Source of the DNA: an uncultured Clostridia bacterium | Lineage (GTDB): Bacteria; Bacillota; Clostridia; Christensenellales; UBA1242 | Assembly: GCA_944377365.1 (NCBI GenBank) | Contig: CALWEQ010000010.1 | Location: forward strand, 70,455-134,454 | Length of the DNA stretch: 64,000 nucleotides | Direction of reading: 5' to 3' | Shown: positions 2,771-60,351 of the stretch, in pieces | Numbering within the stretch: the stretch's first letter is position 1 | Layout: every line of letters starts with the position of its first letter | Notes under the pieces: generated by a model | The model's input: the letters and a program-made list of their open reading frames with translations, nothing else | What the model was told of the DNA's origin: nothing | Database searches by the model: none | Translations under genes and position numbers: made by a program

Positions 2771-3229
2771 TTAAACTTTTACAACGGGCACAATGTGCGC
2801 TATGAGTTCTTTTTTAACTATAACAGGTTTATCATTTTGAATTATTGTGACAAAGTTGTCGTCATAACTCTGCAAAATTCCAACGAAAGTTTTTTTATTC
2901 TCTAATTTTTTAAACAATGTAATTTCTATTTCCTTTCCTTTGTTTCTGTCAAAGTCGCGAGTGGTTTTTAATGGTCTATCAATACCTGGCGAACTGACGC
3001 TTAAAACATAAGGCTTGTCGTCAGTTGGATTCATTTCTTCCAAAATAGGATCAATAGCTTTTGTAACTTTTTCACAATCTTCTATTGTGATTGGTTTGTC
3101 TGAATCAATAGTAAAAATCAAGTTCATCTCTCCGGCAATTTTTTGATAACTCACTTCTATCAATTCATATCCTAAATTTTCTATTATAGGACGAAGTTCA
3201 TTTTCACATTTATCTTTTATTTTTGACAA
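2771..3229 (-). CDS. rimP: ribosome maturation factor RimP
   Basis: 152 aa, LSVSSPGIDRPL motif. TTG start 5 nt after GGAGG. First gene of the rimP-nusA-infB operon. Confidence 0.9.
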   Translation of the reverse strand: MSKIKDKCENELRPIIENLGYELIEVSYQKIAGEMNLIFTIDSDKPITIEDCEKVTKAIDPILEEMNPTDDKPYVLSVSSPGIDRPLKTTRDFDRNKGKEIEITLFKKLENKKTFVGILQSYDDNFVTIIQNDKPVIVKKELIAHIVPVVKV

Positions 3230-3249
3230 TTTTTCCTCCTTCTACAAAT

Positions 3250-3273
3250 GAAGTGGGCAAGTTTGCCCACTTC
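3250..3273 (-). promoter_or_regulatory. strong 5'-UTR hairpin between the rimP promoter and SD (candidate attenuator)
   Basis: GAAGTGGGC/GCCCACTTC 9-10 bp GC-rich stem. On the minus strand it is followed by AUUUGUAG, a poor U-tract, and then AAGGAGG. Confidence 0.3.
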
Positions 3274-3290
3274 GAAATTCCAGTCTCTTT

Positions 3291-3319
3291 ATTATATCAT
3301 TATCTTTAACAAATTGCAA
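3291..3319 (-). promoter_or_regulatory. sigma-A-type promoter of the rimP-nusA-infB operon
   Basis: Minus strand TTGCAA (3319-3314), 17 nt spacer, TATAAT (3296-3291). Confidence 0.55.
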
Positions 3320-3355
3320 GAAAAATTTCATATTTTTTCAAATTTATTAAAACGC

Positions 3356-4888
3356 TTATACCTTTTCGCTTAACTTCAACAATACTTTTGCTGTCGCAAA
3401 AGCATCATTATAAGCTCTATGCGCGCCAGTCAAATCAATTCCAAGTGCCGTAGAAACTGTAGAAAGCTTAAAATTGCTTATTTTTAGGTGCTTACTTCTA
3501 GCTATTAACATAACATCTAGGTTGTCATTTTCTAATGATAAATTGACTTTTTGATACGCTTTGCGTAAAAATTTGTTGTCGAAGTCAGTATTGTTGTAAC
3601 CAGAAATTACACAGCCTTTTGTGAATTTGTAAAAATCGATTATAACGTCTTCAATCTTTGGTGCGTTTTCTACCATTTCATTTGTGATATGATTAATTTT
3701 GGTTGCCGATTCTGGAATAGGTGTAATCGGTTTGACAAATGTAGAAAACTTTTTTGTTATTTTTCCTTTTTCAATTTTTATAGCACCGATTTCAATTATT
3801 TCACAGGTTTCAGGGTCAAGTCCTGTGGTTTCTAAATCGTAAACAACTATATTTCTAGAAGCTATTGGCTCATCGTAGACAGGCTCTTTAATAAAAATGT
3901 TTTCTTGGCGGTTTTCATAGTAATCTTCTATGCTTACTACTTGCCGTTTTAAAACAATTTCATCGTCATCGTTTTCTTTTGGAGGGGTTTTTAATTGCGC
4001 TAAAGTCATAGATGAAATATAGTATGTCAATTTTCCAGATAAGCCCACTTTAATGTCGCCAAGACATAAAAAACAAAGATTTTCTTGTAATGCGGAAAGC
4101 TTAGGTTGGTTTGTTTTTGTAGAAAAATAAACACATTCTATGCTGTTGCCGTCATTTAATAAAAAAGTAGCATATTTTTTTTCTTGTCCTGCCATCTTCC
4201 CTTTTTTTGCCGTAAAAGATTTTATTTCAATTTTCGAGATGTTGCCAAACAAAATAACTGATGTTTTAGGTTTTTTATTGTTTTTTATTTGCTCAGGGAA
4301 AGGAGAAATGTCTTTACCAAAAAGTTTCTTAATTGGTGTAACTTCATATCGCGAAGTTTTTTTAGCTTCAAGTTTGTATTTTATCGGTGCGATTTCTCCT
4401 GGGATTTCAAAATTATTGTCTTCAACTGCAACTATTTCAAAATTTCCTAAAAAGTTGTTCCCCAAAAACTCCAACAATTTAATTTTTACAAATCTATTGT
4501 CAAAATAATCTTTTACTAATTTGCTTAAATGTAACTCTATTTCGACGTTATTGTTTTCTTTTTTCAAAAAAATCTGTTGCTGTGAAAATTCTGATGAAAT
4601 GGCAGGATAGCTTTCAGTGAAAAATTTAATTATTTCTTTTTTAAGCAACCTTTCGTCCAAGAAACTTTTTTTGAATTTAATCCGTATTTTGCTGAAAAGT
4701 GAAATATTGTCCTTTACAAACTTTTCTATTTCTTTTCTTTCATCGCTAGTAATTTCGTCGATAGTTTCTGGATATAAAAAAGTAAAGACGCATTCTTCAC
4801 TTTCATAGTCTAAACTCACGTCATACAATCTCAAATAATCAAATTTTCCATTCTCATAGCTTATGAGGCCTTGTGTTAAAATATCCAC
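3356..4888 (-). CDS. DEDDh 3'-5' exonuclease (PolC/epsilon-type) with a long N-terminal OB-like region and no polymerase domains
   Basis: C-terminal 170 aa carry Exo I VYDLETTGL, Exo II GYNNTDFD and Exo III HRAYNDA, resembling the PolC proofreading domain. GTG start 9 nt after the rseP stop. Occupies the slot between rseP and rimP. Confidence 0.6.
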   Translation of the reverse strand: MDILTQGLISYENGKFDYLRLYDVSLDYESEECVFTFLYPETIDEITSDERKEIEKFVKDNISLFSKIRIKFKKSFLDERLLKKEIIKFFTESYPAISSEFSQQQIFLKKENNNVEIELHLSKLVKDYFDNRFVKIKLLEFLGNNFLGNFEIVAVEDNNFEIPGEIAPIKYKLEAKKTSRYEVTPIKKLFGKDISPFPEQIKNNKKPKTSVILFGNISKIEIKSFTAKKGKMAGQEKKYATFLLNDGNSIECVYFSTKTNQPKLSALQENLCFLCLGDIKVGLSGKLTYYISSMTLAQLKTPPKENDDDEIVLKRQVVSIEDYYENRQENIFIKEPVYDEPIASRNIVVYDLETTGLDPETCEIIEIGAIKIEKGKITKKFSTFVKPITPIPESATKINHITNEMVENAPKIEDVIIDFYKFTKGCVISGYNNTDFDNKFLRKAYQKVNLSLENDNLDVMLIARSKHLKISNFKLSTVSTALGIDLTGAHRAYNDAFATAKVLLKLSEKV

Positions 4889-4897
4889 ATTTAAATT

Positions 4898-6034
4898 TTA
4901 CAAAATAAAGTGTAAAATGTCAACAATAATTACAAAAGCAAAAAGCACGCATAAACCTATAAAGTGAATTTTGTTTTCCAAACTTCGCTTTATCGGCTTT
5001 TTTCTGATCCATTCTATTGTTGTAAAAACCACATGAGAGCCATCGAGTGCCGGTATAGGCAACAAGTTGAATATAGCTAGATTTGCTGAAATTGCAGGAA
5101 TTAAGATCAACAGGTTAAGCCAATTAGTTTGTGTGGCTGACGCGATCATTGTTATAGTAGTGACAGGACCACCTACTGCGGAAATTGGCAGTTGAAAAGT
5201 TATCAAAAGCCATAATGATTTTAAAACTACCCAAGCAAAACCAAAAGCGACCTCCCAACATCTTAAAAGTGCTTCTCCAAAAGAGTAAACATATGGTGAG
5301 TAAGAAAAACACAAATAAATGTTTTCAGATGCTAATGTATTTGTACCCTCATAATAAGATCTTATCACTTGGAAAGAGATCTCTTTGTTTTGAATTTTTC
5401 CGTCACGATTGATTGTGACATTAAATGAATATCCTTCCAATTGTCCGTCTGGAGCGTTTTCAATACCGCCATAAGTGTTGTTAATAAATTCGAAAGCTTC
5501 GGCCTGTTTTTTAGCTATTAGATTTTGAAAAGTATCACCAAAAGCAAAATCAACTTCAACCCCGTCTATATGCGTGATGACATCTCCTTCTTCGAGTTGA
5601 GTTTGCACATATGGTTGATTGTTAATAGTAATAGTGTTGGATTTGATTTGAGGCAAATCATAACCAGCTGTGCAAAGTAAAATTAAGGAAAATAAAACGG
5701 CAGTTAAAAAGTTCATCGTTATTCCAGCTAAGAAAACGATAATCCTTTTCCATGGCTTTTGGGCATTAAAGCTGTCTTTTGCAGGTGTTTCGTTGTCGTC
5801 TTCTTCACCTTTAAAAGCACAATAACCACCAAGAGGAAAAACCCGTAATGAAATGAGTTCGCCTCGTTTGTTTTTTCGCTGAAAAATAGGCTTACCAAAG
5901 CCTATCGAAAACTCTGTAATTTTGAATTTTAATATCCTTCCTGCAATATAATGACCTAGTTCGTGAACGAGCACCATAAAAAGCAAAATTATAATTGCGA
6001 TTGCAATGTAGAGGACATAAGTTAAAACTTGCAT
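4898..6034 (-). CDS. rseP: RIP zinc metalloprotease RseP (site-2 protease, M50)
   Basis: HELGHY in TM1, a PDZ-like middle region, NLLPIPALDG motif. Synteny after cdsA. Confidence 0.9.
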   Translation of the reverse strand: MQVLTYVLYIAIAIIILLFMVLVHELGHYIAGRILKFKITEFSIGFGKPIFQRKNKRGELISLRVFPLGGYCAFKGEEDDNETPAKDSFNAQKPWKRIIVFLAGITMNFLTAVLFSLILLCTAGYDLPQIKSNTITINNQPYVQTQLEEGDVITHIDGVEVDFAFGDTFQNLIAKKQAEAFEFINNTYGGIENAPDGQLEGYSFNVTINRDGKIQNKEISFQVIRSYYEGTNTLASENIYLCFSYSPYVYSFGEALLRCWEVAFGFAWVVLKSLWLLITFQLPISAVGGPVTTITMIASATQTNWLNLLILIPAISANLAIFNLLPIPALDGSHVVFTTIEWIRKKPIKRSLENKIHFIGLCVLFAFVIIVDILHFIL

Positions 6035-6041
6035 TCTTCTC

Positions 6042-6986
6042 CTAAATTAATAAAATCACAAGGGCAATAAGTAAATATGGCGATACAAATATATATGAGT
6101 CAATCCTATCTAGCATTCCGCCATGTCCTGGCAAAGCTTTGCCACTGTCTTTAACTCCTGCCTTTCGTTTTAAAAAAGATTCAAACAGATCACCTGCTTG
6201 CGCAATAATAGAGCCTATAAAGACGATTATAAGCAATTCCCAAATTTCTATAACATTTATACTTGCAGAAAAATAATCAATAGAAGCTAAAATAAGATAA
6301 ATGCAAGCAGAAAGTAGTGTGCACCAGAGAGTTCCACCTATCGCACCTGACACAGTCTTTTTAGGGCTGATGTTTGGAGCTAATTTTTTGCCACCTATCA
6401 ACATTCCACTCAGCATAGCGAATGAATCCGTAAGCATTGGGATTATGAATGCAAATATCAACGCAATTACTGAAAGTTTTGAATTAAAATTTGAAATAGA
6501 GCCAAAGTTTATTTCGTCAATATGGTTTATTAAGCTCATTGTCATAAACAAAAGTGTTGGGTAAATAAGAGCAAGCATGGTGTTTAAGGAACGTTTAAAA
6601 ACAAATTTTAAGTTTGTTGTGTTTTTAATTTCACGAACCTTTATTTCATTATTGACAGCTTTTTTTCTAAATATATCAATGACAAACGCCAAAAGAGCTC
6701 CTAAAAAAACTAAAATAACATTTATTAAGACAATAAATCCAAATCCAATTTTAAAGTAATAACCTAATATATTTCCAGTCAGTATTAATGCTGGAAAAGT
6801 CATCGACACTATTAAATTGTTGTAAAGCCCTGCTCTTGAAAGTATTTTGGAGCATTCAAATCCTGCAACTGCAGAGACTAAAGCAAAGAAAAAGTCAAAA
6901 AAATACGGGCTAACATAAATTTTTAAAACAAACAGCAAAGCGATTGTTAATACTATTGCTAGCGATGTTAAAAGTCTTGTTTTCAT
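6042..6986 (-). CDS. cdsA: phosphatidate cytidylyltransferase
   Basis: Polytopic membrane protein with C-terminal signature SFLKRKAGVKDSGKALPGHGGMLDRIDS. Follows uppS. Confidence 0.85.
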   Translation of the reverse strand: MKTRLLTSLAIVLTIALLFVLKIYVSPYFFDFFFALVSAVAGFECSKILSRAGLYNNLIVSMTFPALILTGNILGYYFKIGFGFIVLINVILVFLGALLAFVIDIFRKKAVNNEIKVREIKNTTNLKFVFKRSLNTMLALIYPTLLFMTMSLINHIDEINFGSISNFNSKLSVIALIFAFIIPMLTDSFAMLSGMLIGGKKLAPNISPKKTVSGAIGGTLWCTLLSACIYLILASIDYFSASINVIEIWELLIIVFIGSIIAQAGDLFESFLKRKAGVKDSGKALPGHGGMLDRIDSYIFVSPYLLIALVILLI

Positions 6987-7666
6987 TAGTTTCCTCCATA
7001 TCTTCTCTTGCGTTTTGAAAAATTTTCTAAAGCCAAAATAAGTTCATTTTTGTCAAAGTCCGGCCACATCTTATCCGAAAAATATAGTTCAGAATATGAA
7101 ATCTGCCACAACATAAAATTTGACAATCTAACCTCACCACTTGTCCTAACAACAAGGTCTGGGTCTGGGAAATCTTTTGTGTAAAGATTGTTTGTAATGT
7201 CCTCTTGTGTTATTTTTGTTTTGCCATCTTCGATCGCCATGTTGACAGAATGAATTATATCTTCCCTACCACCATAGTTTAAACAAAATCCTACTTTTAA
7301 TGTTTTGCAATTTTTGGTTGAATTCATCGTGTCGTTTAAAATTTTTGTTACCCTTTCTGGAAATCGAGATAAGTCTCCAAAGATTTCAACATATATATCG
7401 TTTTCCAAAAAAAATTTTTCACCCTTTTTAAAATATTCTTCGATTAAGTCAATCAAGCCTTCAACTTCATCGACAGATCTTGACCAATTTTCTGTTGAAA
7501 AACAGTAGAATGAAGCATATTCAATTTTTTCTTCTATAAGCCATAGCAATGTGTTTTTTAAATTTTTTACCCCTTGCCTATGCCCTAACAGTGCTGGCAT
7601 TAAGCGCTTTTTTGCCCACCGTCTGTTGCCATCCACTATAAAAGCGACATGTTTTGGTTTTGCCAT
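6986..7666 (-). CDS. uppS: isoprenyl transferase (undecaprenyl diphosphate synthase)
   Basis: HVAFIVDGNRRWA, FSTENWSR and RTSGEVRLSNFMLWQ motifs. Confidence 0.95.
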   Translation of the reverse strand: MAKPKHVAFIVDGNRRWAKKRLMPALLGHRQGVKNLKNTLLWLIEEKIEYASFYCFSTENWSRSVDEVEGLIDLIEEYFKKGEKFFLENDIYVEIFGDLSRFPERVTKILNDTMNSTKNCKTLKVGFCLNYGGREDIIHSVNMAIEDGKTKITQEDITNNLYTKDFPDPDLVVRTSGEVRLSNFMLWQISYSELYFSDKMWPDFDKNELILALENFSKRKRRYGGN

Positions 7667-7680
7667 AAAATCTCCAAAAT

Positions 7681-8250
7681 TTATATCTCTAAAATTTCCT
7701 TTTCTTTTGTGGCAAACGTAGAGTCAACCTTTGTAATGTAGTTGTCTAAAATTTTTTGTACTTCTTTTTCAAGTGAACTTTGTTCATCTTCACTGATTTC
7801 GTTGTTCTTCTTCAAATTCTTTATTTTATCCATAGTGTCTCGTCTTGCTGAGCGCATAGCGACCTTTGTGTCCTCAGCAATTTTTTTGGTTTGTTTTACT
7901 ATCTCTTTTCGCCTTTCTTCTGTAAGCTGTGGAAACACCAATCGTATTGTTTTGCCGTCGTCGGTGGGGGTAATTCCTATATCCGATGCGGTAATAGCTT
8001 TTGTGATGTTTTTAATTTGAGAAACATCCCAAACCGAAATGCAAAGTATGCGTGCTTCTTGAACTGAAATGTTTGCCATTTGTTTTATTGGTGTTGGCGA
8101 GCCGTAGTAGTCAACGACAATTTTGTCTAGTATGCGAGGGTTTGCCCTGCCTGCTCTAATCACAACGTATTCATTAATTTGATGGTTGTGCGCTTTTTCA
8201 AGTTCTTCTTCATATTCAAAGAAAATCTCATCAACTATGTCCTGATTCAT
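7681..8250 (-). CDS. frr: ribosome recycling factor
   Basis: RAGRANPRILD...LTEERRKE motifs. Start chosen at ATG 8250, which has AGGAGAAAAC upstream. The track start at 8286 lacks an SD. Confidence 0.95.
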   Translation of the reverse strand: MNQDIVDEIFFEYEEELEKAHNHQINEYVVIRAGRANPRILDKIVVDYYGSPTPIKQMANISVQEARILCISVWDVSQIKNITKAITASDIGITPTDDGKTIRLVFPQLTEERRKEIVKQTKKIAEDTKVAMRSARRDTMDKIKNLKKNNEISEDEQSSLEKEVQKILDNYITKVDSTFATKEKEILEI

Positions 8251-8379
8251 GTTTTCTCCTGTTAAAAAATTTTGTGAGATTATCACACGAGAATTATACT
8301 AAATATATAAATTTTTTCCAAATAAAATACTCTAATATCTATTTCTTTTTTAAATTTAATAAATAGTTTTAAATTTAAT

Positions 8380-8408
8380 ATAAAAAAGCTCGCTGTTGCG
8401 AGCTTTAA
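8380..8408 (-). terminator. rho-independent terminator after tsf
   Basis: AAGCTCGC/GCGAGCTT stem, loop of 4 nt, then a T-run on the minus strand. Confidence 0.75.
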
Positions 8409-9056
8409 TTATTGCATTTGTTTTGCAACTTCTTCGGCAAGATTGTCTTGGCGTTTTTCAAGTCCCTCACCCATTTCATAACGAGTAAATCTACGAACTG
8501 AAATTTTTTCACCAATGGTAGCTGTTGCTTCTGTAAGAACTGCTTGAATTGTTTTTGAAGAATCTTTAACAAAATCTTGATCCAATAAGCAAAAATCTTT
8601 ATAGAATTTAACTACCCTTCCCTCTACCATTTTTTCAATAATGGCCTCAGGCTTGCCTTCATTTTTTGCTTGTGCACGAAGTATGCTTTTTTCTTTTTCA
8701 AGAACTTCTGCTGGCACTTCTTCACGTGAAACGTACTTAGGATTTGCAGCTGCGATTTGCATTGCAATATCTTTTACAAGAAGGTTGAAAGCATCTGTTC
8801 TTGCAACAAAGTCTGTTTCGCAGTTTACTTCAACTAGCACACCAATCTTTCCACCCATATGAATGTAAGAACCTACGACGCCTTCTGAAGCAATTCTGCC
8901 TTGTTTCTTTGAAGCTGCTGCAATGCCTTTTTCTCTGAGCCAAGTAGTTGCTTTTTCAAAATCACCATTTGACTCTGTCAAAGCTTTTTTACAATCCATC
9001 ATTCCTGCGCCGGTTCTTGCTCTTAACTCGGCAACGTCTTTTGCTGTAAACATCAA
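8409..9056 (-). CDS. tsf: elongation factor Ts (short form)
   Basis: [25 protein letters not shown]-like N-terminus. Lies directly after rpsB. Confidence 0.95.
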
Positions 9057-23593: not shown

Positions 23594-23635
23594 TAAAAAA
23601 GTGCTAAATGCCTTTATTTATAAGGCATTCAGCAC
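23594..23635 (-). terminator. strong terminator whose stem includes the last codons and stop of the 397-aa gene
   Basis: 14-bp stem GTGCTGAATGCCTT/AAGGCATTTAGCAC, 7-nt loop, T6. Confidence 0.75.
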
Positions 23636-24797
23636 TATTTTTTAGCTCTTTAAATGTTAAATAATTTTTTCCGATAAATTTTGTGTTTCCGATTTGAATG
23701 TAACCTTGCTCACTCCCAAAAATTACATTGATTTTTTTCCATACTCTTCCATCAAATATTTGCAATGACGAGATGTTTTCTAAACCCATAAAAACAAAAT
23801 TTTTTTCATTTTGTACTAAATATTGTTCTTTTAATCTTGTATATTCGATTTCGCTTTTTTCATCATTTTCTCCTTTAAGCCAAGATAAATATATTCTTTC
23901 TGGTAAAGTTTGATTTAAAAGTCGTTGCTCGTTTTTATTCTTTGATTTTATTCTTAAGTTAAATCTTTCATTAATTTGTCTGTCAGCTTCAGCCATAAAC
24001 ATTTCCATTTCGCCTTGATTTGATAGAACAAATTTTTGATCTCCATAATTAAAGAAAAAAACTTTTTTCTGCTTAGGTTTTAAACATACTTCACATTGAA
24101 TGTTGACACATGCATGTGTGCAGTTTTCTACGCCGTCAATACAAGAAAAAACAAATCGCGATTGTTTGCAATTAAAGTTAAAATATGTTTTATCGCAAGA
24201 AAACAAATTGGTAATTTCAACACATGAATACTTTTTTTGAAAATAGTAATACCCTTTTTCTAATGGCACATTGATTGTAAACGTTATCTTTTTAACAGAG
24301 TTTGACAGGTTTATAAATTCTACATAATAGCTTCTCCCACACATAACAAATTCTTTAATGTAATATTTAATTTCATCTTTTATCCCTGTTGATAATAAAT
24401 AAAAATCATGTAAACACATGTTCTGTCGATAACCATTGATTTCAATGTAATTTTCTTCTGCCTTTAAATGGTAGCCAGAATTAGATTTATAATTTACATT
24501 TAATTTGTTAACATCAGGATTGTTTTTTAAAACTATTGCACCAAGTTTTTTTTGTGCTCGTTTGTTTTCTTCAGTAATAATTAGATTAAAGTCACAAACT
24601 GTTTTCGCACGCTGAAAACATTTAAATATTGGGCGAGAAAGTTCTTTTTCGAATTTAAACACAGGCAATGATGGGTCAATGCCGAGTTTTATAAGTTTGT
24701 CAAAATCTATGTCAGTGCTGTAAAGAATTGGAGCATGAAATCTTAATCGATTGAGTATTAAGTTTGTCATATTAAATAAATAATCTCTTTTCTTCAT
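23604..24797 (-). CDS. hypothetical protein, 397 aa, Cys-rich central region
   Basis: Long open frame with no recognisable motif and no SD before the ATG. Starts 20 nt after the rnpB terminator. Confidence 0.55.
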   Translation of the reverse strand: MKKRDYLFNMTNLILNRLRFHAPILYSTDIDFDKLIKLGIDPSLPVFKFEKELSRPIFKCFQRAKTVCDFNLIITEENKRAQKKLGAIVLKNNPDVNKLNVNYKSNSGYHLKAEENYIEINGYRQNMCLHDFYLLSTGIKDEIKYYIKEFVMCGRSYYVEFINLSNSVKKITFTINVPLEKGYYYFQKKYSCVEITNLFSCDKTYFNFNCKQSRFVFSCIDGVENCTHACVNIQCEVCLKPKQKKVFFFNYGDQKFVLSNQGEMEMFMAEADRQINERFNLRIKSKNKNEQRLLNQTLPERIYLSWLKGENDEKSEIEYTRLKEQYLVQNEKNFVFMGLENISSLQIFDGRVWKKINVIFGSEQGYIQIGNTKFIGKNYLTFKELKNSAECLINKGI

Positions 24798-24845: not shown

Positions 24846-24850
24846 AAATT

Positions 24851-25183
24851 CAGTCAAACATAAGCCGAGTTCTGTGTCATGTGGTCATCTATCTAGGCCT
24901 AATGTTGCCAATAGGCTCAAGCGTTGCTTTTGGAAGACGTGAAAGACAGCACATTGTCTTCGCTTAAACTTGCATCGAGTGGGGTTTACAGTGACGAAAG
25001 ATGTTTCCACCTTTCCGGTAAGCTCTTGCCTCACCTTTCCATCCTTACCCTTGCGGGCGGTTTATTTCTGTTGCACTTTCCTTAGAGTCGCCTCCACCGG
25101 TCGTTAGCCGGCACTCCGTCTTTTGATGCCCGGACTTTCCTCATTTTGCTTTTACAAGCAAACCGCGACCACAAGTTTGACTG
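24851..25183 (-). ncRNA. rnpB: RNase P RNA, bacterial type A
   Basis: Minus strand contains GAGGAAAGTCCGGGC, GTGCAACAGAAATAAACCGCC, GGTAAGGATGGAAAGGTGAGGCAAGAGC, GTAAACCCCAC and ACAGAACTCGGCTTAT. P1 pairs CAGTCAAAC with GTTTGACTG. Confidence 0.9.
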
Positions 25184-25221
25184 ACCCAATCATTTTAACA
25201 TAAAATGAGGTTTATGTCAAC

Positions 25222-26577
25222 TTAGTTGACAGTAAAAAGAAGTTTTGGATGCTTTTTGTCAGCTGTAAATCCTTGAAATTCTCCATCTTGCGAAATTTTA
25301 ATTGCGACACCATATTTAGATAGAGCCATAGCTGCGGCTTTTCTACCACCACCGCTAATGGAGCCTGCTTCAATTTTCAATATAGCACCAGCAGCTATTA
25401 TGCTACCGTCGAAATCTACAATAGTTGCCCCATCCATTGCAACAATCTCTTGCCTAAATTTTCTGCTTAATTCATGAAATTTTTTTCCTTGAATAATTTG
25501 ATTTAAACAAATTGATTTAAAGCAACAATTCTTTGACAAAAAGTTTTCAAAATCATCACTATACAATTTTCTTATTTCTTCAGCATTGTTTAAATTAAAT
25601 ATTTTGTCTGCTTCTTCTAATTGCTGTTCTTTTTTTATATTGTAGTATTTTTCTTCAACAATGTCATTCGCATTTATATGAGTAAGGGCTTGTTCAACCA
25701 TATCGCGCTTTAAATAAACAATTATTCCGCCAGAATATTTAAATGAACAATCGAGAGAAGTTAAATAAACAGCACGTCTAACCTCTCGCAAGGAATGAGT
25801 TGATCTGTAAGAGAGAAGCTGAATGACCTCTTCATGACTATAGATGTTCCATTTTCCGCGTCTTTTTGCAAACATCAAAGTTCGGTTTTTAAATATGAGC
25901 AAATCACCACTTTCAGTTAACACCATGCCAACTTTACGATCATTGCAATATCTTGCAACACTGTTGTAATCGTTTGGAGCGGTTGTAGAATAATTTCTTA
26001 CTTTTTCAAGAGACACATAACCTGTCAAATAACCGTCCTTGTTGAATTCAACAAACGAATGCTTTCCATCAGAAAGCAAGGCAAAAAAATCTGTTGAAAT
26101 TATATTAGAATAATGCAATTTTTTTTCAGTGTCAGTTTCAGAAAGATTTAATATTATGCCAAAATCAACTGCTTTGCCTTCATAAGTGCGATTGCTCCAT
26201 CTTGTCAATGCGCTAATCAACCCAAGCATTACTGAAGAAGCAGATGATGCAACGCTGTCGCAAACAGCTTTCTCAACAGCTTTTTCTTGCAAAGTTAGTT
26301 CATAAGTAGGATCTAAAAAAACTGATTCATTTATTTGGCTGAGTTCTTTTAAAATGTTTTTTAACAGAGAGATTTCGAAAGGTTGAAAAGCTCTTCCGCG
26401 TTTAATTATAAATCTGTAATCGGCTAATTTAGTTGGCTTTATCAATAAAGAATTTTGCTTGCCTATCGCTATTTCTGATTCTCTCGCGTTAGACTCTTCT
26501 TCACCCATTAAAATTGAGCCAGTGAAAAGCGGTAAAATTAATTTTGTTAAAACAACGTAAAACTTATCCTTTTCCAA
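25222..26577 (-). CDS. DisA_N/DAC-like domain protein with a ~270-aa unassigned N-terminal region
   Basis: C-terminus reads SGGIIVYL...MDGATIVDFDGSIIAAGAILKIEAGSISGGGRKAAAMALSKYGVAIKISQDGEF, following the diadenylate cyclase pattern (GALIV...DGAxI...GxRHRAA...VSEE-G), but RHR is replaced by RKA. TTG start 9 nt after AAGGGAG. Confidence 0.5.
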   Translation of the reverse strand: MEKDKFYVVLTKLILPLFTGSILMGEEESNARESEIAIGKQNSLLIKPTKLADYRFIIKRGRAFQPFEISLLKNILKELSQINESVFLDPTYELTLQEKAVEKAVCDSVASSASSVMLGLISALTRWSNRTYEGKAVDFGIILNLSETDTEKKLHYSNIISTDFFALLSDGKHSFVEFNKDGYLTGYVSLEKVRNYSTTAPNDYNSVARYCNDRKVGMVLTESGDLLIFKNRTLMFAKRRGKWNIYSHEEVIQLLSYRSTHSLREVRRAVYLTSLDCSFKYSGGIIVYLKRDMVEQALTHINANDIVEEKYYNIKKEQQLEEADKIFNLNNAEEIRKLYSDDFENFLSKNCCFKSICLNQIIQGKKFHELSRKFRQEIVAMDGATIVDFDGSIIAAGAILKIEAGSISGGGRKAAAMALSKYGVAIKISQDGEFQGFTADKKHPKLLFTVN

Positions 26578-40019: not shown

Positions 40020-41156
40020 TTAGCATATTCTTGTCATAATTTGTTCGCCTGTAGGCATAAATTCCTTCAAGCAATCTTCAAGATTATTTACTCTGTCATA
40101 GCATTCACATACGGTGTTTTCTTCCATAGCTTTGACAAATTTGCTAAGGGCTTTTGTTGATGCATTTGGATCAATGCAATAAAATCCGTTTTTATCAACT
40201 AATAAGGTCCCATCTTTTCCCCTCGCAACATAACTATATGGAGTAACATCTAATTTTCTTATTCTATTGTAGATTTTGTTTAAATTATCCTCAATGCCTG
40301 CCAAAGATCTTTTCTCTTCTCTTGTCAACAAGTCAGTGTGCTCTGACGCTAAATAAAACATTTGGTTGTATCTATGTTTTTTAACATCAAATATAGTCAA
40401 ATATCTAGAAAATTTTTCTATTGTTTCTTGTCTCTTGTTTTCTGTTGCCTTTCTTGCTTCTGCTTTTTGTCTAATTTTTTCTCTATGTTCTTGTTTTGCT
40501 TTTTGAATATTTTTCTGCTCTATTTTCTTTTGGTTTTCAATATTTTCGTAAATTGGTCTAAATTCTTTGTCACATCTTGCAACAAAATCTAGTTTTTGAA
40601 GACTTGAATTAATTCTATTCTTTAAAATAGTGTCAAGTTTTTTGATTATTATGTTGTCTTGTTGCACTAAATATTGATCTTTTAATATGGCATTAGCGAT
40701 GTTTTCAGCCATTTCCATTGCATTGTAGTTGTAGCCGTTTTTGTTTTCATCTTCAAACGCTAGCATAATTTTCTTCAAACTTTTTTCATCTTTTAATTTT
40801 TCGTTGGTAGATTTAGTCCTTAAATTAACAGGAAGTTGCTGATTGTACAACAAAACTTCTGTAGCATCATGATCACGTAAAACAAAATCTACTTTTACAT
40901 CATTTTTAATTGTACTTACATTTTGTTTCAAGTTGTTTATCTTCTCTTCATCGAAAAAATCTTCGATTCTAACTTTGATCTTCTTTATGTTCTTTGCTGC
41001 CAAATAAATACTAGCGCAAGCATGTATATCAATAGCAGCATCTCTTGACTCATCATAAAACTTTTTTTGCTTGTTTTCGCAAAGTTGCTTCTTTTCACCC
41101 ATCTTATCGCTCAATAACATAAAAATATACGAATAGTCTTTTGCTTTGTTTGTCAT
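40020..41156 (-). CDS. hypothetical protein, 378 aa, central K/E/Q coiled-coil-like segment
   Basis: ATG 41156 after AAGGAGGAAT. The track extension to 41216 lacks an SD. No recognisable motif. Confidence 0.6.
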   Translation of the reverse strand: MTNKAKDYSYIFMLLSDKMGEKKQLCENKQKKFYDESRDAAIDIHACASIYLAAKNIKKIKVRIEDFFDEEKINNLKQNVSTIKNDVKVDFVLRDHDATEVLLYNQQLPVNLRTKSTNEKLKDEKSLKKIMLAFEDENKNGYNYNAMEMAENIANAILKDQYLVQQDNIIIKKLDTILKNRINSSLQKLDFVARCDKEFRPIYENIENQKKIEQKNIQKAKQEHREKIRQKAEARKATENKRQETIEKFSRYLTIFDVKKHRYNQMFYLASEHTDLLTREEKRSLAGIEDNLNKIYNRIRKLDVTPYSYVARGKDGTLLVDKNGFYCIDPNASTKALSKFVKAMEENTVCECYDRVNNLEDCLKEFMPTGEQIMTRIC

Positions 41157-41374
41157 TATAATTCCTCCTTGTAAACAACACATGTTAATTCTACATGATT
41201 TTAAATGCACTGTCAATACCTAAAATAAAAAAAATTAAAAAATTTCGAAAAAAAACGCTTTTCTTCGACAAATAAAATTTATATGATATAAAATCATAAA
41301 AATTGCTAGATTTTTAATAGATATTTCATTATTATAAAAAAACTATCTGCTAAGAATTTAAAAAGAATAAACTT

Positions 41375-42243: not shown

Positions 42244-42963
42244 TTATTTTAATTTAATCTTTAACAGTTTAATTGCGTTCTCCTCTTCTGGAGTTGCAGT
42301 TTTTATGTTATCGATGTACTTAATCATATCATTTTTTTCGCTTTCAGACAAATTAATTAAATAGGTTTTTTCAATTTGTTTGCGTTTTTCTATGAACTTC
42401 GAACTATCCAAATTGGTTTGTTTAAAAAGTTTTACATATTCTGCAATAACTTGCTCTGCCTGTGACACAGCTGTTGCAGATATTGATTCGACTGGTTTTT
42501 CTTTATGTTGTGAAAAGTTTTTTGTTTTCTCGATTTGCATGTTGACATAATGTCGCCCTCGAAATATATAGACAGCAAAGCCAATGCCAAATGCAGAAAA
42601 AATTAAATTTGAAACTAAATTTAATATATACATGGTCCTGTAAGCATTGTCAGACAAAAGTTGTTGATACAAAGAAAAAGCACTTCCAAAGGTAACATTA
42701 TAAATAGACATCATTACAAGTAAATCGCACAAAATGCTTGAAACTAGGTTTAAAAGAACGACAATTGTAATGTTCCAAACATAAAATTTCCAATCTAGTT
42801 TGTAGTAAAATTTTAAGTAACACCACCCTGTCGCAAACATTGATAAAAGAGAAATGTATCCCACAAACCAACCTTGATAGTACATCAGCCCCCAAATGAC
42901 TGCTCCAACTGTGGCACACAAAAAGGATGTAAGCATTGCTAATGGCAGATTTTGTTTTTTCAT
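42244..42963 (-). CDS. hypothetical membrane protein, 239 aa (4 TM plus a soluble helical C-terminus)
   Basis: Hydrophobic N-terminal 145 aa. SD AAGGGG. Confidence 0.55.
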   Translation of the reverse strand: MKKQNLPLAMLTSFLCATVGAVIWGLMYYQGWFVGYISLLSMFATGWCYLKFYYKLDWKFYVWNITIVVLLNLVSSILCDLLVMMSIYNVTFGSAFSLYQQLLSDNAYRTMYILNLVSNLIFSAFGIGFAVYIFRGRHYVNMQIEKTKNFSQHKEKPVESISATAVSQAEQVIAEYVKLFKQTNLDSSKFIEKRKQIEKTYLINLSESEKNDMIKYIDNIKTATPEEENAIKLLKIKLK

Positions 42964-43085
42964 TTAAACCCCTTGATTAATAATTTTAAAAACTTCAAGC
43001 ACCTTATTATGTTAACATATAAGCATATTCAAGTCAACTTTTTCAATTTTATTTTATCCTATATAATTAAAAAATAGACAAATAA

Positions 43086-43595
43086 TTAGAAATCTTTTTT
43101 TCTAACACTGTTGTCCATTTGATTAATTTTTTTCAAATAAATATTTGGTGATTTCCAATAAATATAACATAACCATAAAATCATATTTAAAAAATAAGTT
43201 ATTTGAACAGTTAAAGCAGATATTTGTAATGCAGATTTAGCGCTCATGCTGTCAACAAATATTGTAACAAACATGCTAATAATCAAAATTAAAAACGAAC
43301 AGATTGTTTCAGTAACAATCATGTTGATTACGTGTGTCAGATCCATCATCTTTTGGTCTGATTCTTCAATAAAAATCTTTACGCTTTCTTCGTCATTATA
43401 AGTGAGTTGCAAAGCTTTCAATTTTGTTTGCAAAACTTGTCTTCTTTTAGATGACAAGATAGGAAGTATAAATAGAAGCAATGCGATGTTTACTGCTATA
43501 AAACTAAAAGTTGCAGTTTGTATAAATTCTGCTTGCTGTGTGTTGAAAACAATCGACTCAATAAGAAATATGGTTATAAGAAAAAAATATAACAC
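43086..43595 (-). CDS. hypothetical membrane protein, 169 aa
   Basis: Four hydrophobic segments. GTG start without an SD, so the start is uncertain. Confidence 0.4.
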   Translation of the reverse strand: MLYFFLITIFLIESIVFNTQQAEFIQTATFSFIAVNIALLLFILPILSSKRRQVLQTKLKALQLTYNDEESVKIFIEESDQKMMDLTHVINMIVTETICSFLILIISMFVTIFVDSMSAKSALQISALTVQITYFLNMILWLCYIYWKSPNIYLKKINQMDNSVRKKDF

Positions 43596-43885
43596 TCAGT
43601 TGCTTTTGAAATAATGCAATAAACTAAGATAACCCGATTAACATAGTGTTTTCTTTCTGCGTTACATTCTCTTAACTGCAAAAAAAATATTTTTGCTGTT
43701 GTAAAGGTTGCATGTCAAATTGCCTTAAATTTGACAGCGTAAACATGCGTTTACTTTAAAAAGAGATAGAATAAAGCAAAAAATTAAAAGACTACTAAAA
43801 TTTAGATAAGCTGTAAAAATTTACAATACGTTTTTATTTTGCTAGTATCAATTTTACAAGCCTTGCACAATATTATTGTTTTTTA

Positions 43886-43914
43886 TTGCAAAAAAATTTT
43901 TTATGTGTTAAAAT
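43886..43914 (+). promoter_or_regulatory. tRNA-Ser promoter
   Basis: TTGCAA (43886-43891), 17 nt, TGT-TAAAAT (43909-43914). The tRNA starts 13 nt later. Confidence 0.55.
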
Positions 43915-43926
43915 ATAGCGTCATTT

Positions 43927-44014
43927 GCAGAGGTGTCAGAGCGGTCTAATGTGCACGCTTGGAAAGCGTGTGTGGTGAGAGCCACCTCGGGTTCGAATCC
44001 CGACCTCTGCGCCA
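43927..44014 (+). tRNA. tRNA-Ser (anticodon GGA), encoded CCA
   Basis: Acceptor GCAGAGG/CCTCTGC. Anticodon stem CACGC/GCGTG with loop TTGGAAA. Long variable arm. T-arm TCGGG-TTCGAAT-CCCGA. Discriminator G then CCA. Confidence 0.9.
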
Positions 44015-44039
44015 TTTTATATTTCAATATATAACAAAC

Positions 44040-44056
44040 GTCGGGATTCGAACCCG
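44040..44056. repeat. 17-nt perfect inverted copy of the tRNA-Ser T-arm region, followed by T9
   Basis: GTCGGGATTCGAACCCG is the reverse complement of 43988-44004. Confidence 0.85.
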
Positions 44057-44106
44057 TTTTTTTTTATGGATGGGGTCCCCGCCAACATTTATGTTTGTGG
44101 GGCAAT

Positions 44107-44122
44107 AATCCCGACCTCTGCG
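44107..44122 (+). repeat. 16-nt direct repeat of the tRNA-Ser 3' end
   Basis: AATCCCGACCTCTGCG is identical to 43996-44011. It is preceded by a degenerate T-stem, TGGGG-CAATAAT-CCCGA. Confidence 0.85.
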
Positions 44123-44208
44123 TAAAAATACTTCCAAAATTTTCTGTCGTTTCTATTTTAAAAATTTGTATGTAACCAAACAGCATGCAATTATAAAAAA
44201 TCATAAAG

Positions 44209-44730
44209 TTATTTGTTGCAAATATTTTCTAGTTCCTGCTTTTTCTTTTCTTGAATGGCAACATGATCTGGTAAGATAGTGTCTTCATGATTTATGTAAT
44301 TGCACATTTCAACAAAATCAAAATATGATTGATCAACTGTTTCAAGCTTATCTAGCATATTTGAATAAGTTTCATCTTTTTTAAAAGTGTTTTTCTTATG
44401 GCTTAAATTTTTCCCAATTTTTTCCATTAAACTGTTTGCTATCATAGTAAACGTATCGTAGTTTGTAACAATTTTTTTAACATCCGTATAATCACTGATT
44501 TGATTTTTGTTGAAAACTACGATATAACCTCTTGCTAATGATGCTATTCTTTCTATATCAAATTTGATTGCAAAATCTACAACTGCATGAAAAAAAGCTA
44601 TTTTGCTTTCAAAATAGGCTTTAGCTGTTGGTTCAGCATATTTGTCTACTATGTAATTGTAGTATTCTTCTCTTTGTTGTTTTAATATTTCAAAATCCAT
44701 TTCATTTTCATTTACAAAATTTTTTGTCAT
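44209..44730 (-). CDS. hypothetical protein, 173 aa
   Basis: ATG 44730 after TAGGAGAAGCT. The track extension overlaps mnmA. No motif recognised. Confidence 0.5.
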   Translation of the reverse strand: MTKNFVNENEMDFEILKQQREEYYNYIVDKYAEPTAKAYFESKIAFFHAVVDFAIKFDIERIASLARGYIVVFNKNQISDYTDVKKIVTNYDTFTMIANSLMEKIGKNLSHKKNTFKKDETYSNMLDKLETVDQSYFDFVEMCNYINHEDTILPDHVAIQEKKKQELENICNK

Positions 44731-44770
44731 AGCTTCTCCTAATCCTATTATAGTTTGTTTATTTTTTTTG

Positions 44771-45850
44771 TCAAGAGGCGCTGAATGTTTTATCAATCCT
44801 TCCGCCACCTAAACAGATGCCTTCATCATCATATAAAACAGCATATTGGCCTGGCGCAACAGCTCTCTGAGGCTGACAAAAATCTATTTTAATGTTTTTT
44901 TCGTCAATAATTTTTATCTTTGCTTTTTGATCAGGCTGACGGTAGCGAATTTTGACAAAACAGTCGAATTCCTTTTCCTTTGGCATTTCTGTGATATAAT
45001 TCATATCCACTGCAAACAATCCATCACAATACAAAAGTTTGTCATCACCTTGTGCCACTATTATTTGATTTTTTTGCATATCTTTTTTGACTACAAACCA
45101 TCTGCCGTTGTCCTTCCCTGCCTGTCCTCCGATGTTAAGACCCCGTCTTTGCCCTAAAGTGTAAAACATAGCTCCTTCGTGCTTGCCAATGACGTTTCCA
45201 TTTGTGTCTACAATTTCTCCAGGTTGTGCTGGTAAATAATTTTTTAGAAAATTTTTAAAATTTCGCTCACCAATAAAACATATGCCTGTCGAGTCTTTTT
45301 TTTCTGCGGTAGACAAGCCAAGTTCCTTTGCAATCTTTCTAACTTCTGTTTTTCTTATGTCCTGTAATGGAAAAATTACACTTGCAAGCTGAGATTGCGA
45401 AAGTTGATTTAAAAAATAAGACTGATCCTTGCTTTCATCCGTCGCTTTAGCTAAATAAAATTTTCCATTTCGCTCTATTTTCTTCGCATAATGACCTGTT
45501 GCAATCATATCTGCGCCCAATTTTTTTGCTTGATCTAAAAATGGGCCAAATTTAATTTCACGATTACATAAAACATCGGGATTGGGAGTTCTACCATTTT
45601 TGTGTTCATCTAAAAAATACTTAAAAACTCTGTCATAATATTCTTTAGCATAATTAACTGAAAAATACGGTATGCCGATTTTTGAACATACTCTTTTGAC
45701 ATCTTCAAAGTCTGCTTCTGCTGTACATTCACCATTTGGTTCTTGCCAATTAACCATAAATAGCCCAATAACTTCGTGACCCTGTTTTTTTAGTAAATAT
45801 GCAGCAACTGAAGAATCGACTCCTCCACTAACTCCTACAACAATCCTCAT
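44771..45850 (-). CDS. mnmA: tRNA 2-thiouridine(34) synthase
   Basis: VGVSGGVDSSVAA PP-loop, CNREIKF, and catalytic Cys in DSTGICFIG. Confidence 0.95.
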   Translation of the reverse strand: MRIVVGVSGGVDSSVAAYLLKKQGHEVIGLFMVNWQEPNGECTAEADFEDVKRVCSKIGIPYFSVNYAKEYYDRVFKYFLDEHKNGRTPNPDVLCNREIKFGPFLDQAKKLGADMIATGHYAKKIERNGKFYLAKATDESKDQSYFLNQLSQSQLASVIFPLQDIRKTEVRKIAKELGLSTAEKKDSTGICFIGERNFKNFLKNYLPAQPGEIVDTNGNVIGKHEGAMFYTLGQRRGLNIGGQAGKDNGRWFVVKKDMQKNQIIVAQGDDKLLYCDGLFAVDMNYITEMPKEKEFDCFVKIRYRQPDQKAKIKIIDEKNIKIDFCQPQRAVAPGQYAVLYDDEGICLGGGRIDKTFSAS

Positions 45851-46335: not shown

Positions 46336-46364
46336 ATTTTAATTAATTTAAAAATAATTGTCAA
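46336..46364 (-). promoter_or_regulatory. consensus promoter abutting the start of the zinc-ribbon/TM2 gene (leaderless candidate)
   Basis: TTGACA (46364-46359, overlapping the cyclase stop), 17 nt, TAAAAT (46341-46336), 6 nt, ATG (46329). No SD. Confidence 0.6.
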
Positions 46365-60345: not shown

Positions 60346-60351
60346 AGAGAT

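What the first reader, a model, noticed from the sequence alone, without database searches (positions are those of the whole stretch)
3356..4888. The polC slot is occupied by a 510-aa OB-like plus proofreading-exonuclease protein with no polymerase or PHP domains
In Bacillus-type gene order (uppS-cdsA-dxr-rseP-proS-polC-rimP-nusA), the gene before rimP is the ~1430-aa PolC. Here the gene between rseP and rimP has an intact DEDDh exonuclease: VYDLETTGL, GYNNTDFD (Tyr in place of the usual His/Asn-flanked motif) and HRAYNDA. Its ~330-aa N-terminal part has the length and an OB-like segment (VILFGNISKIEIKSF...ATFLLNDGNSIECVYF) reminiscent of the PolC N-terminal domains. It stops where the PHP and polymerase parts would start. 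It could be a split or reduced PolC derivative acting as a stand-alone proofreader. It uses a GTG start coupled 9 nt after rseP.
Basis: partly seen in the sequence, partly recalled or inferred. Interest (0 to 1): 0.55.

Follow-up and report, generated by a model that had tools for sequence, protein, structure and literature searches.

The report
PolC remnant: stand-alone proofreading exonuclease
Where related bacteria keep the gene for their main DNA-copying enzyme (PolC), this uncultured gut Clostridia lineage has only that enzyme's front end and error-correcting nuclease, as a conserved 510-residue protein with no polymerase part, so error correction there is probably done by a separate protein.

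Summary
The ORF is real: 3356-4888 on the minus strand, 510 aa, GTG start 9 nt after rseP. It lies between rseP and rimP-nusA. That is the slot where canonical Clostridia carry a 1350-1560-aa polC.

It is derived from PolC. Profile-profile alignment matches residues 5-324 colinearly to the PolC N-terminus (NTD plus OB; E 1e-15 to 1e-20; reversed controls about 0.5). The best structural matches are PolC. All DEDDh catalytic residues are invariant. The PHP, polymerase core and HhH parts are all missing. The PHP segment that precedes Exo in PolC is replaced by a disordered linker. That linker carries a conserved Q-x-N-[LI]-F motif resembling the clamp-binding motif at PolC C-termini.

The architecture is fixed at 500-535 aa in at least 150 clusters at 50% identity. 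All come from uncultured Clostridia, and the family tracks host phylogeny. dN is low while dS is saturated.

Most likely it is a stand-alone, clamp-tethered 3'-5' exonuclease that proofreads in trans. I could not test whether these genomes encode an Exo-less PolC, a canonical PolC or only DnaE1 elsewhere. No named family or paper describes it. I rate it a new variant of a known kind.

The parts
3356..4888 (-). Complete gene for the 510-aa PolC-derived protein (NTD - OB - linker - DEDDh exonuclease). It has a GTG start and a TAA stop.
   Evidence: ORF list. Start context. An identical protein sits on a second contig. More than 615 homologues of the same length exist. dN is 0.06-0.33 with saturated dS against orthologues.
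4421..4888 (-). N-terminal domain, aa 1-156. It consists of two alpha/beta (KH-like) subdomains homologous to the PolC NTD (the NI + NII region).
   Evidence: AF2 secondary structure H2-13 E20-27 E32-40 H48-61 E67-75 H79-93 / E106-111 E114-121 H123-131 H134-145 E149-156, pLDDT about 85-93. hhalign of the NTD alone against the PolC N-terminal profile gives probability 91%, E 9.4e-7, positions 19-161 to 22-167. There is no direct Pfam NI/NII hit.
3992..4342 (-). OB-fold domain, aa 183-299, homologous to the PolC OB domain.
   Evidence: PF01336 is hit in 26/43 members. An OB-region HMM scores up to 22 bits on real PolCs against 4.8 or less on decoys. hhalign gives E 3.4e-10. The best Foldseek hit of the N-terminal model is PolC 3f2b_A, 99 columns, rmsd 2.0.
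3854..3991 (-). Low-confidence linker, aa 300-345. It replaces the PHP-N segment of PolC.
   Evidence: pLDDT is 47-77. The family HMM skips about 48-80 PolC residues between OB and Exo. PolC controls have PHP positions 1-68 there. No PHP similarity is found in any short-form locus.
3893..3907 (-). QENIF (aa 328-332), a putative beta-clamp-binding pentapeptide inside the linker.
   Evidence: It translates to QENIF. In the family, Q is present in 61/62, L/I in 58/62 and F in 59/62 sequences, while neighbouring columns vary. PolC C-termini in related Clostridia end in Q[LIMV]S[LI]F. The L016 subgroup has [VI]K[VI]KSVF[DE] instead: Q is lost but F is 120/120.
3368..3853 (-). DEDDh 3'-5' exonuclease domain, aa 346-507. 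The catalytic residues are D351, E353, D437, H490 and D495.
   Evidence: PF00929 at 7e-33. The best NCBIfam match is PolC positions 408-587. The best PDB match is the T. maritima PolC exonuclease 2p1j, E 2e-29 for the single sequence and 1.8e-43 for the profile. The catalytic residues are invariant in 43/43 and 120/120 sequences.
4898..6034 (-). rseP (Peptidase_M50), the upstream flank of the polC slot. Its stop lies 9 nt before the GTG start.
2771..3229 (-). rimP, the downstream flank of the polC slot, followed by nusA at 1595-2758.
3230..3355 (-). 126-nt spacer after the gene. It holds no coding remnant of PHP or polymerase. It contains a promoter-like site and a hairpin in front of rimP.
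   Evidence: Sequence. Promoter-like TTGCAA-17-TATAAT at 3319-3291. tblastn with PolC and DnaE1 finds nothing here.

Best explanation
The gene is what remains of polC at its ancestral locus. An in-frame derivative keeps the PolC N-terminal domain (two KH-like subdomains), the OB fold and the DEDDh exonuclease. It has lost PHP-N, PHP-C, the Pol3 core and the HhH/C-terminal clamp motif. This much is shown. It is inferred that the protein is an active 3'-5' DNA exonuclease. It is further inferred that a Q-x-N-[LI]-F peptide in the linker, which took the place of PHP-N, recruits it to the beta sliding clamp. There the OB fold would handle the frayed single-stranded 3' end. On that reading it proofreads in trans, as epsilon (DnaQ) does, for a C-family polymerase encoded elsewhere that lacks its own DnaQ-type exonuclease. 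That polymerase would be either an Exo-less PolC of the kind already documented in Clostridia and Negativicutes, or DnaE1. My confidence is about 0.9 that it is a functional PolC-derived stand-alone exonuclease. It is about 0.45 for the clamp-tethered trans-proofreader mechanism. The single figure given below covers the whole statement.
For: Identity and origin:
- Colinear profile-profile homology of aa 5-324 to the PolC NTD+OB, E 1e-15 to 1e-20, with clean reversed controls.
- The family HMM aligns to PolC N-termini, for example HMM positions 20-331 to PolC 15-323, i-E 8e-10.
- The top Foldseek hit of the whole model is PolC 9qpc_A, 389 columns, E 1.8e-17. The top hit of the N-terminal model is PolC 3f2b_A.
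- The exonuclease is closest to the PolC exonuclease.

Slot:
- frr-uppS-cdsA-rseP-(ispG)-[short]-rimP-nusA is found in the short-form loci where the flanks could be read. L009, L014 and L015 depart from it on one or both sides.
- Canonical Clostridia have a 1350-1560-aa polC in the same place.

Functionality:
- Length is fixed at 500-535 aa in at least 150 clusters at 50% identity.
- There are more than 615 and 533 clusters at 90% identity in the two searches.
- The DEDDh residues are invariant.
- dN is 0.06-0.33 with saturated dS in every domain.

Vertical inheritance: NusA identity to the window is 52-97% in short-form loci against 42-49% in PolC loci.

Clamp motif:
- A nearly invariant Q..[LI]F sits in an otherwise variable, low-pLDDT linker.
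- It resembles the Q[LIMV]S[LI]F-D found at the C-termini of PolC from the fetched Clostridia-dominated loci.
- It also resembles motifs such as QGNLF tabulated by Timinskas et al..

Complementary architecture: 6% of PolCs lack the Exo insertion (NTD-OB-PHP-Pol3-HhH). Apart from one extra PolC copy in Thermotogae, all of these are in Clostridia and Negativicutes (PMC3919608).
Against: - No polymerase partner was identified. None lies within +/-10 kb of about 19 family loci or anywhere in the 64-kb window. Genome-wide content could not be queried.
- The linker motif has a polar residue at position 2, where PolC motifs have L/I/M/V.
- In the large L016 subgroup the Q is replaced by V/I, so clamp binding is not secure for the whole family.
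- There is no epsilon-like C-terminal polymerase-binding tail. The protein ends right after the last exonuclease helix.
- No activity, substrate or interaction was tested.
- Strong gene-strand bias and a purine-rich coding strand are the pattern the literature links to PolC-type replicases. That is compatible with a normal PolC being present elsewhere.
Confidence: 0.5

Rival explanations
1. Accessory paralogue. These genomes still encode a canonical Exo-containing PolC at another locus. The polymerase-less copy left in the old slot then serves DNA repair or 3'-end processing on clamp-loaded DNA, for example mismatch-repair excision or removal of blocked 3' ends, rather than replicative proofreading.
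For: - polC is often found outside the canonical cluster in other Clostridia. One example is the 1335-1356-aa PolC lineage next to typA, so relocation is plausible.
- Published surveys report PolC in nearly all Firmicutes.
- The window has strong strand bias and a purine-rich coding strand.
- In one family locus (L015) the gene is followed by miaB-mutS-mutL.
Against: - With an intact PolC exonuclease in the cell, a redundant copy would not be expected to keep all catalytic residues, the NTD and the OB across at least 150 clusters at 50% identity.
- No second PolC-type exonuclease locus from any of the 17 short-form genomes appeared among the 80 best genome hits. That scan was truncated at 600 pattern matches, so this is weak evidence.
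- Contig-length fingerprints gave no co-occurrence with the typA-linked PolC lineage.
Confidence: 0.25
2. True split PolC. The missing PHP-Pol3-HhH half is encoded as a separate gene without its own NTD and OB. The two polypeptides reassemble non-covalently into a PolC-like enzyme.
For: The architecture is exactly the N-terminal module plus Exo. The NTD and OB are retained, which would make sense if they dock onto a polymerase half.
Against: - In PolC the exonuclease is inserted inside PHP. A simple split would leave PHP-N attached to this protein, but PHP-N is deleted.
- No PHP/Pol3 gene lies adjacent in any of about 19 loci.
- The documented Exo-less PolCs keep their own NTD and OB.
Confidence: 0.08
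3. Neofunctionalised RNA exonuclease. The KH-like and OB domains now bind RNA, and the DEDDh domain trims RNA 3' ends. This would fit its place at the end of an operon next to rimP-nusA-infB.
For: NCBI names family members '3'-5' exoribonuclease'. There are weak hits to the Rv2179c-like exoribonuclease family PF16473. KH and OB folds commonly bind RNA.
Against: The PF16473 hit (35 bits) is far weaker than RNase_T/PolC-Exo (115-140 bits). The genomic position is inherited from polC and so is not evidence of function. The closest relatives of every domain are DNA-polymerase domains.
Confidence: 0.1
4. Decaying pseudogene remnant of polC, or an assembly or annotation artefact.
For: It is a truncated relative of an essential gene, known only from metagenome assemblies.
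Against: The same 500-535-aa architecture occurs on hundreds of independent contigs from NCBI, ENA, JGI and Logan. Catalytic residues are invariant. dN is much lower than dS. The gene has a clean stop followed by a 126-nt spacer and rimP.
Confidence: 0.02

Closest known systems
[quoted passage not shown]
   Same: It shares the N-terminal domain (two KH-like subdomains), the OB fold and the DEDDh exonuclease in the same order. It occupies the same genomic slot (rseP/ispG - x - rimP-nusA). The closest sequence and structure matches of every domain are PolC.
   Different: It has no PHP domain (neither the N nor the C half), no Pol3 palm/thumb/fingers, no HhH and no C-terminal clamp motif. It scores 139.5 bits against the family cut-off of 873. 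It is one third of the length. It carries a new conserved Q-x-N-[LI]-F peptide where PHP-N used to be.
Epsilon subunit (DnaQ) of E. coli DNA polymerase III
   Same: Both are stand-alone DEDDh proofreading exonucleases. Epsilon also carries a weak clamp-binding motif next to the exonuclease domain (own knowledge: QTSMAF). The window protein passes the TIGR00573 dnaQ subfamily-domain cut-off (99.2 against 71.5 bits).
   Different: Epsilon has no NTD or OB module, and it binds the alpha PHP domain through a C-terminal tail that is absent here. The exonuclease is only distantly related (E 2e-4 for the single sequence, 1e-12 for the profile). The evolutionary origin is different.
Exo-less PolC of Negativicutes and some Clostridia (NTD-OB-PHP-Pol3-HhH; Timinskas et al. 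2014, PMC3919608)
   Same: It is the exactly complementary domain loss from the same ancestral architecture, in the same bacterial class and the same PolC+DnaE1 background.
   Different: Those proteins keep the polymerase and lose the exonuclease. This one keeps the exonuclease and loses the polymerase. Co-occurrence in one genome has not been shown.
Other Firmicutes DnaQ-like exonucleases (DinG N-terminal DEDDh domain; PRK06807 3'-5' exonuclease; Cas2-DEDDh)
   Same: The DEDDh fold is shared, with similar scores for the exonuclease domain alone (NF005289 136 bits; 8zef 29% identity, rmsd 1.4).
   Different: None of them has the PolC-type NTD+OB module or the polC slot. All fall below their own family cut-offs.

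Membership tests
PolC-type DNA polymerase III (NF001688, TIGR01405) | Whole-protein score above the curated cut-off | tested here: not met
   NF001688 scores 139.5 bits against a cut-off of 873. TIGR01405 scores 131.7 against 1043. Only model positions 408-587 (Exo) match.
PolC-type DNA polymerase III | Polymerase core (PF07733 DNA_pol3_alpha, PF17657 fingers, PF14579 HhH) | tested here: not met
   No such Pfam hits in the window protein or in any of 43 members. The protein ends 3 residues after the exonuclease domain.
PolC-type DNA polymerase III | PHP domain split by the exonuclease insertion | tested here: not met
   No PF02811 hit. Control PolCs show PHP positions 1-68 between OB and Exo. 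tblastn with DnaE1 PHP finds both PHP halves in every PolC locus and nothing in the short-form loci.
PolC-type DNA polymerase III | PolC-specific N-terminal domain (Pfam DNA_pol3_a_NI PF14480 and NII PF11490) | tested here: inconclusive
   Direct hmmscan gives 0 of 43 members at E<=0.1, against 4 of 6 control clostridial PolCs. Profile-profile comparison gives NTD probability 91%, E 9.4e-7, colinear, with a reversed control of E 0.53. AF2 shows two alpha/beta subdomains, as predicted for the PolC NTD.
PolC-type DNA polymerase III | OB fold N-terminal to the catalytic modules | tested here: met
   PF01336 in 26/43 members. hhalign E 3.4e-10 to the PolC OB. The best Foldseek hit is the PolC 3f2b OB, rmsd 2.0.
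PolC-type DNA polymerase III | Clamp-binding motif at the extreme C-terminus | tested here: not met
   42 of the 48 PolCs compared match Q..[LIMF][FL] within the last 14 residues, most often QLSLF. The short protein ends ...LLKLSEKV. A similar motif lies internally at 328-332.
DEDDh (DnaQ-like) 3'-5' exonucleases (PF00929; TIGR00573) | Domain score above the cut-off and the five catalytic residues D-E-D-H-D | tested here: met
   PF00929 scores 114.9 bits (cut-off 24). TIGR00573 scores 99.2 (cut-off 71.5). D351, E353, D437, H490 and D495 are invariant in 43/43 and 120/120 sequences.
Epsilon (DnaQ) proofreading subunit | C-terminal segment that binds the polymerase PHP domain | tested here: not met
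   There is no sequence after the exonuclease domain. The dnaQ_proteo equivalog scores 66 bits against a cut-off of 222.7.
Epsilon (DnaQ) proofreading subunit | Physical and functional coupling to a C-family polymerase | not testable with these tools
   No complex prediction or assay was available, and no polymerase gene of these genomes was retrieved.
Beta-clamp-binding proteins | Exposed Qxx[LIM]xF / QL[SD]LF-type peptide that binds DnaN | tested here: inconclusive
   The motif is present and conserved in a low-pLDDT linker, and it is similar to PolC C-terminal motifs. The Q is lost in the L016 subgroup. Binding itself cannot be tested here.

The most novel reading that the evidence does not exclude
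This large uncultured Clostridia clade has lost the PolC polymerase altogether and replicates with DnaE1 alone. Only the PolC N-terminal/OB/exonuclease module survives, re-tooled with its own clamp-binding peptide as an epsilon-like proofreading subunit. This would be a replicase-type switch caught inside the Firmicutes. It would also predict natural insensitivity to PolC-targeting antibiotics such as ibezapolstat.
Probability: 0.2. Interest if true: 0.85.

Novelty: new variant of a known kind. Interest (0 to 1): 0.62.

Why it matters
PolC is treated as the essential, defining replicase of low-GC Gram-positive bacteria. Its locus is one of the most conserved in Firmicutes.

Here a whole clade has converted that locus into a polymerase-less NTD-OB-exonuclease gene. 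The clade spans hundreds of species-level clusters of gut and rumen Clostridia. Either way the result bears on replicase evolution:
- These bacteria may have separated proofreading from polymerisation. That would explain how the puzzling Exo-less PolCs reported in 2014 could still proofread.
- Or they may have given up PolC entirely.

The finding has three further uses:
- It offers a natural experiment on the unknown function of the PolC N-terminal domain, which is retained here without the polymerase.
- It adds a candidate clamp-binding proofreader.
- It matters for predicting which commensals PolC-targeting antibiotics will spare.

Databases currently label the protein 'ribonuclease H-like' or '3'-5' exoribonuclease', which hides all of this.

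Tried and rejected
- Direct Pfam and NCBIfam scans and a profile search of PDB sequences saw only the exonuclease. They could not settle the N-terminal question, which needed local hhalign against PolC N-termini harvested from fetched loci.
- An NTD-only HMM against PolC sequences did no better than decoys (6.6 against 7.1 bits).
- I looked for a polymerase partner near the gene. tblastn with a PolC and with a clostridial DnaE1 fragment against all short-form loci and the window found nothing. Pfam on every ORF of at least 600 aa in those loci, and on the window's large ORFs, found nothing either.
- I tried to link the family to a PolC lineage by matching 'longest contig' lengths between hit lists. 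The single match (15,147 bp) turned out to be two different contigs.
- I searched the supplements of the 2014 and 2026 polymerase surveys for Christensenella and for Exo-less PolC hosts. The stored files are cut, and only Acidaminococcus was visible.
- The listing of cluster members gave no organism names.
- The afdb50 fold library was unavailable.
- A regex search for clamp motifs in this organism's MutS, MutL and PolA gave no useful reference.
- A neighbour-joining tree of exonuclease domains separates short forms from PolCs, but it is too crude to root or to decide between one and two truncation events.
- Strand bias and purine skew were considered as a proxy for PolC presence. I rejected them as decisive because the literature attributes the AT skew to selection on coding strands.
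Full report
**Observation**

The ORF at 3356-4888 on the minus strand encodes 510 aa from a GTG codon. The GTG lies 9 nt after the TAA of rseP and has no obvious ribosome-binding site. The same GTG start is used by the two closest orthologues.

The minus-strand gene order is rpsB-tsf-frr-uppS-cdsA-rseP-[510 aa]-rimP-nusA-ylxR-(L7Ae-like)-infB. A 126-nt spacer follows the stop. It holds a promoter-like site and a hairpin, then rimP. There is no room for a hidden polymerase remnant. tblastn with PolC or DnaE1 finds none.

**Domain content**

Pfam sees only the DEDDh exonuclease (RNase_T, residues 348-503, 7e-33). The best NCBIfam match is the exonuclease segment of the PolC equivalog (model positions 408-587 of 1445), far below the family cut-off (139.5 against 873 bits). 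The best solved structure by sequence is the Thermotoga maritima PolC exonuclease domain 2p1j.

An AlphaFold2 model built on 43 homologues (mean pLDDT 85.5) shows five parts:
- two alpha/beta subdomains at residues 1-156;
- a poorly ordered connector;
- an OB barrel at about 183-299;
- a low-confidence linker at 300-345;
- the exonuclease at 346-507.

**Is the N-terminal part PolC-like?**

Pfam DNA_pol3_a_NI and NII hit none of 43 family members. They do hit 4 of 6 control PolC N-termini from Clostridia. So the region has diverged beyond single-profile detection.

I took 48 full-length PolCs from the loci that the genome scan returned and compared profiles.
- The family HMM aligns colinearly with PolC N-termini. 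For example, HMM positions 20-331 align to PolC 15-323 with i-E 8e-10.
- The N-terminal-only HMM scores up to 27 bits on real PolCs, against 7 or less on reversed and shuffled decoys.
- hhalign of family residues 1-335 against the PolC N-terminal profile gives probability 98.5-99.4% and E 1.9e-15 to 1.9e-20 over 306-328 columns. The alignment ends exactly where PolC begins its PHP motif KRVELHxHT.
- Taken separately, the NTD gives E 9.4e-7 and the OB gives E 3.4e-10. Reversed-column controls give E about 0.5.

The structural results agree. PolC 9qpc_A is the top Foldseek hit of the whole model (389 columns, E 1.8e-17). PolC 3f2b_A is the top hit of a separate model of residues 1-300 (OB domain, rmsd 2.0 A). 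The NTD has no solved counterpart, because it is unresolved in the PolC structures.

Conclusion: the protein is PolC minus PHP and polymerase. The PHP-N stretch that precedes the exonuclease in PolC (about 50-85 residues) is also excised.

**The slot**

In canonical Clostridia (Petroclostridium, Geosporobacter, Halanaerobiales, Peptoniphilus, Clostridium and others) the order is frr-uppS-cdsA-...-rseP-...-polC-rimP-nusA, with polC of 1350-1560 aa.

In 13 loci from uncultured Clostridia the short gene sits between rseP and rimP-nusA. In the more divergent members L016, L017 and L038, ispG lies directly upstream and rimP-nusA follows. L022 has a same-sized, unscanned gene upstream. L014 and L015 have ispG upstream but no rimP-nusA downstream.

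NusA identity to the window is 52-97% in all short-form loci but only 42-49% in PolC-bearing loci. The short form therefore marks one coherent host clade. It looks vertically inherited from an old event.

**A real, selected family**

- The first search returned more than 615 clusters at 90% identity. The best 120 are all about 510 aa.
- An exhaustive HMMER search of representatives at 50% identity listed 150 hits. Almost all are 500-535 aa and cover the full length, and the list was still at 284 bits at rank 150.
- A divergent subgroup around L016 adds at least 120 more 505-514-aa clusters.
- All sources are metagenomes or MAGs. The only names are 'ribonuclease H-like domain-containing protein' and '3'-5' exoribonuclease [Clostridia bacterium]'.
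- The DEDDh residues D351, E353, D437, H490 and D495 are invariant in 43/43 and 120/120 sequences.
- Against the nearest orthologues, dN is 0.06 for Exo, 0.09 for OB, 0.13 for NTD and 0.22 for the linker, while dS is saturated.

**A new feature in the linker**

The linker is variable and has low pLDDT. Within it, Q328 (61/62), L/I331 (58/62) and F332 (59/62) are almost invariant, giving Q-[ESAD]-[NF]-[LI]-F, usually followed by an acidic residue.

Of the 48 PolCs compared, 42 carry a Q..[LIMF][FL] motif, most often QLSLF, in their last 14 residues. This is their clamp-binding motif. Published tables list variants such as QGNLF and QASLF.

The truncated protein lost that C-terminal motif and carries a look-alike where PHP-N used to be. 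I read this as a beta-clamp-binding peptide.

Two caveats apply. Position 2 is polar rather than hydrophobic. And in the L016 subgroup the motif is [VI]K[VI]KSVF[DE], without the Q.

**What could not be settled**

The central open question is which polymerase these bacteria use. The 64-kb window has polA, mutS, mutL, smc, recA and rarA/mgsA. It has no dnaE, polC or clamp-loader genes. None of about 19 family loci has a C-family polymerase within 10 kb.

The literature frames the options:
- Clostridia normally have PolC plus DnaE1 with three active proofreaders (PMC12926913).
- 6% of PolCs lack the Exo insertion while keeping NTD and OB. Apart from one extra PolC copy in Thermotogae, all are in Clostridia and Negativicutes (PMC3919608).
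- Two Clostridia were reported to lack PolC altogether (PMC4070872).

I found no paper describing a stand-alone NTD-OB-Exo protein.

**Verdict**

The most likely function is a stand-alone, clamp-tethered 3'-5' DNA exonuclease that proofreads in trans for a polymerase lacking its own DnaQ-type domain. Identity and origin are shown. Activity, clamp binding and the partner are inferred.

The main rival is an accessory repair paralogue that coexists with a normal PolC. The most novel reading still open is complete loss of the PolC polymerase in this clade.

Noticed in passing
window 3230-3355 (minus strand): The spacer before rimP carries a near-consensus promoter-like site, TTGCAA-17-TATAAT with an upstream TG (3319-3291). 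It also has a perfect 10-bp hairpin, GAAGTGGGCA-aac-TTGCCCACTTC, just upstream of the rimP ribosome-binding site. This may be a leader or attenuator of the rimP-nusA-infB operon.
   Followed up: partly
window 4898-9056: The conserved cluster is trimmed in this lineage. There is no pyrH between tsf and frr (a 122-nt gap). There is no dxr between cdsA and rseP, and no ispG or proS before the polC slot. More divergent relatives (L014-L017, L038) still have ispG directly upstream.
   Followed up: partly
window 1-64000: Gene-strand bias is extreme: about 45 of 48 genes lie on the minus strand. GC skew is negative in every 2-kb window and AT skew in all but five, so the coding strand is rich in G and largely in A. 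The literature associates this pattern with PolC-type replicases.
   Followed up: partly
L018, L020, L021, L083 (polC at L083:7599-11609): A large, highly conserved PolC lineage of 1335-1356 aa (at least 120 clusters at 67% identity or more) lacks the first N-terminal subdomain. Its polC lies outside the canonical cluster, directly after typA/bipA in L083. A purL-like gene near it is 48-58% identical to the one next to the short gene in L017.
   Followed up: partly
L015:9848-17392: In one divergent family member the short gene is followed by a miaB-like radical-SAM gene, mutS and mutL instead of rimP-nusA. In the window, miaB-mutS-mutL-miaA lie about 50 kb away (53833-60363).
   Followed up: no
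window 25222-26577 and 23604-24797 (minus strand): Two ORFs of 451 aa and 397 aa flank the RNase P RNA gene (24846-25184). Neither has a Pfam match at E<=1e-5.
   Followed up: no
window 46361-47833 (minus strand): A 490-aa protein has a class III adenylate/guanylate cyclase catalytic domain (PF00211, residues 248-415) and an unassigned N-terminal half.
   Followed up: no
window 40020-41216, 42244-42963, 43086-43595, 44209-44808, 45847-46329, 51986-52585: Several conserved-size ORFs (160-398 aa) on the main coding strand have no Pfam hit. Those at 42244-46329 lie near tRNA-Ser(GGA) (43927-44014) and mnmA.
   Followed up: no
L006:3605-6409, L011:515-3388, L007:3606-5501, L013:4620-6425: Large ORFs (601-957 aa) with no Pfam match lie a few kb upstream of the frr-uppS cluster in four family loci.
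   Followed up: no
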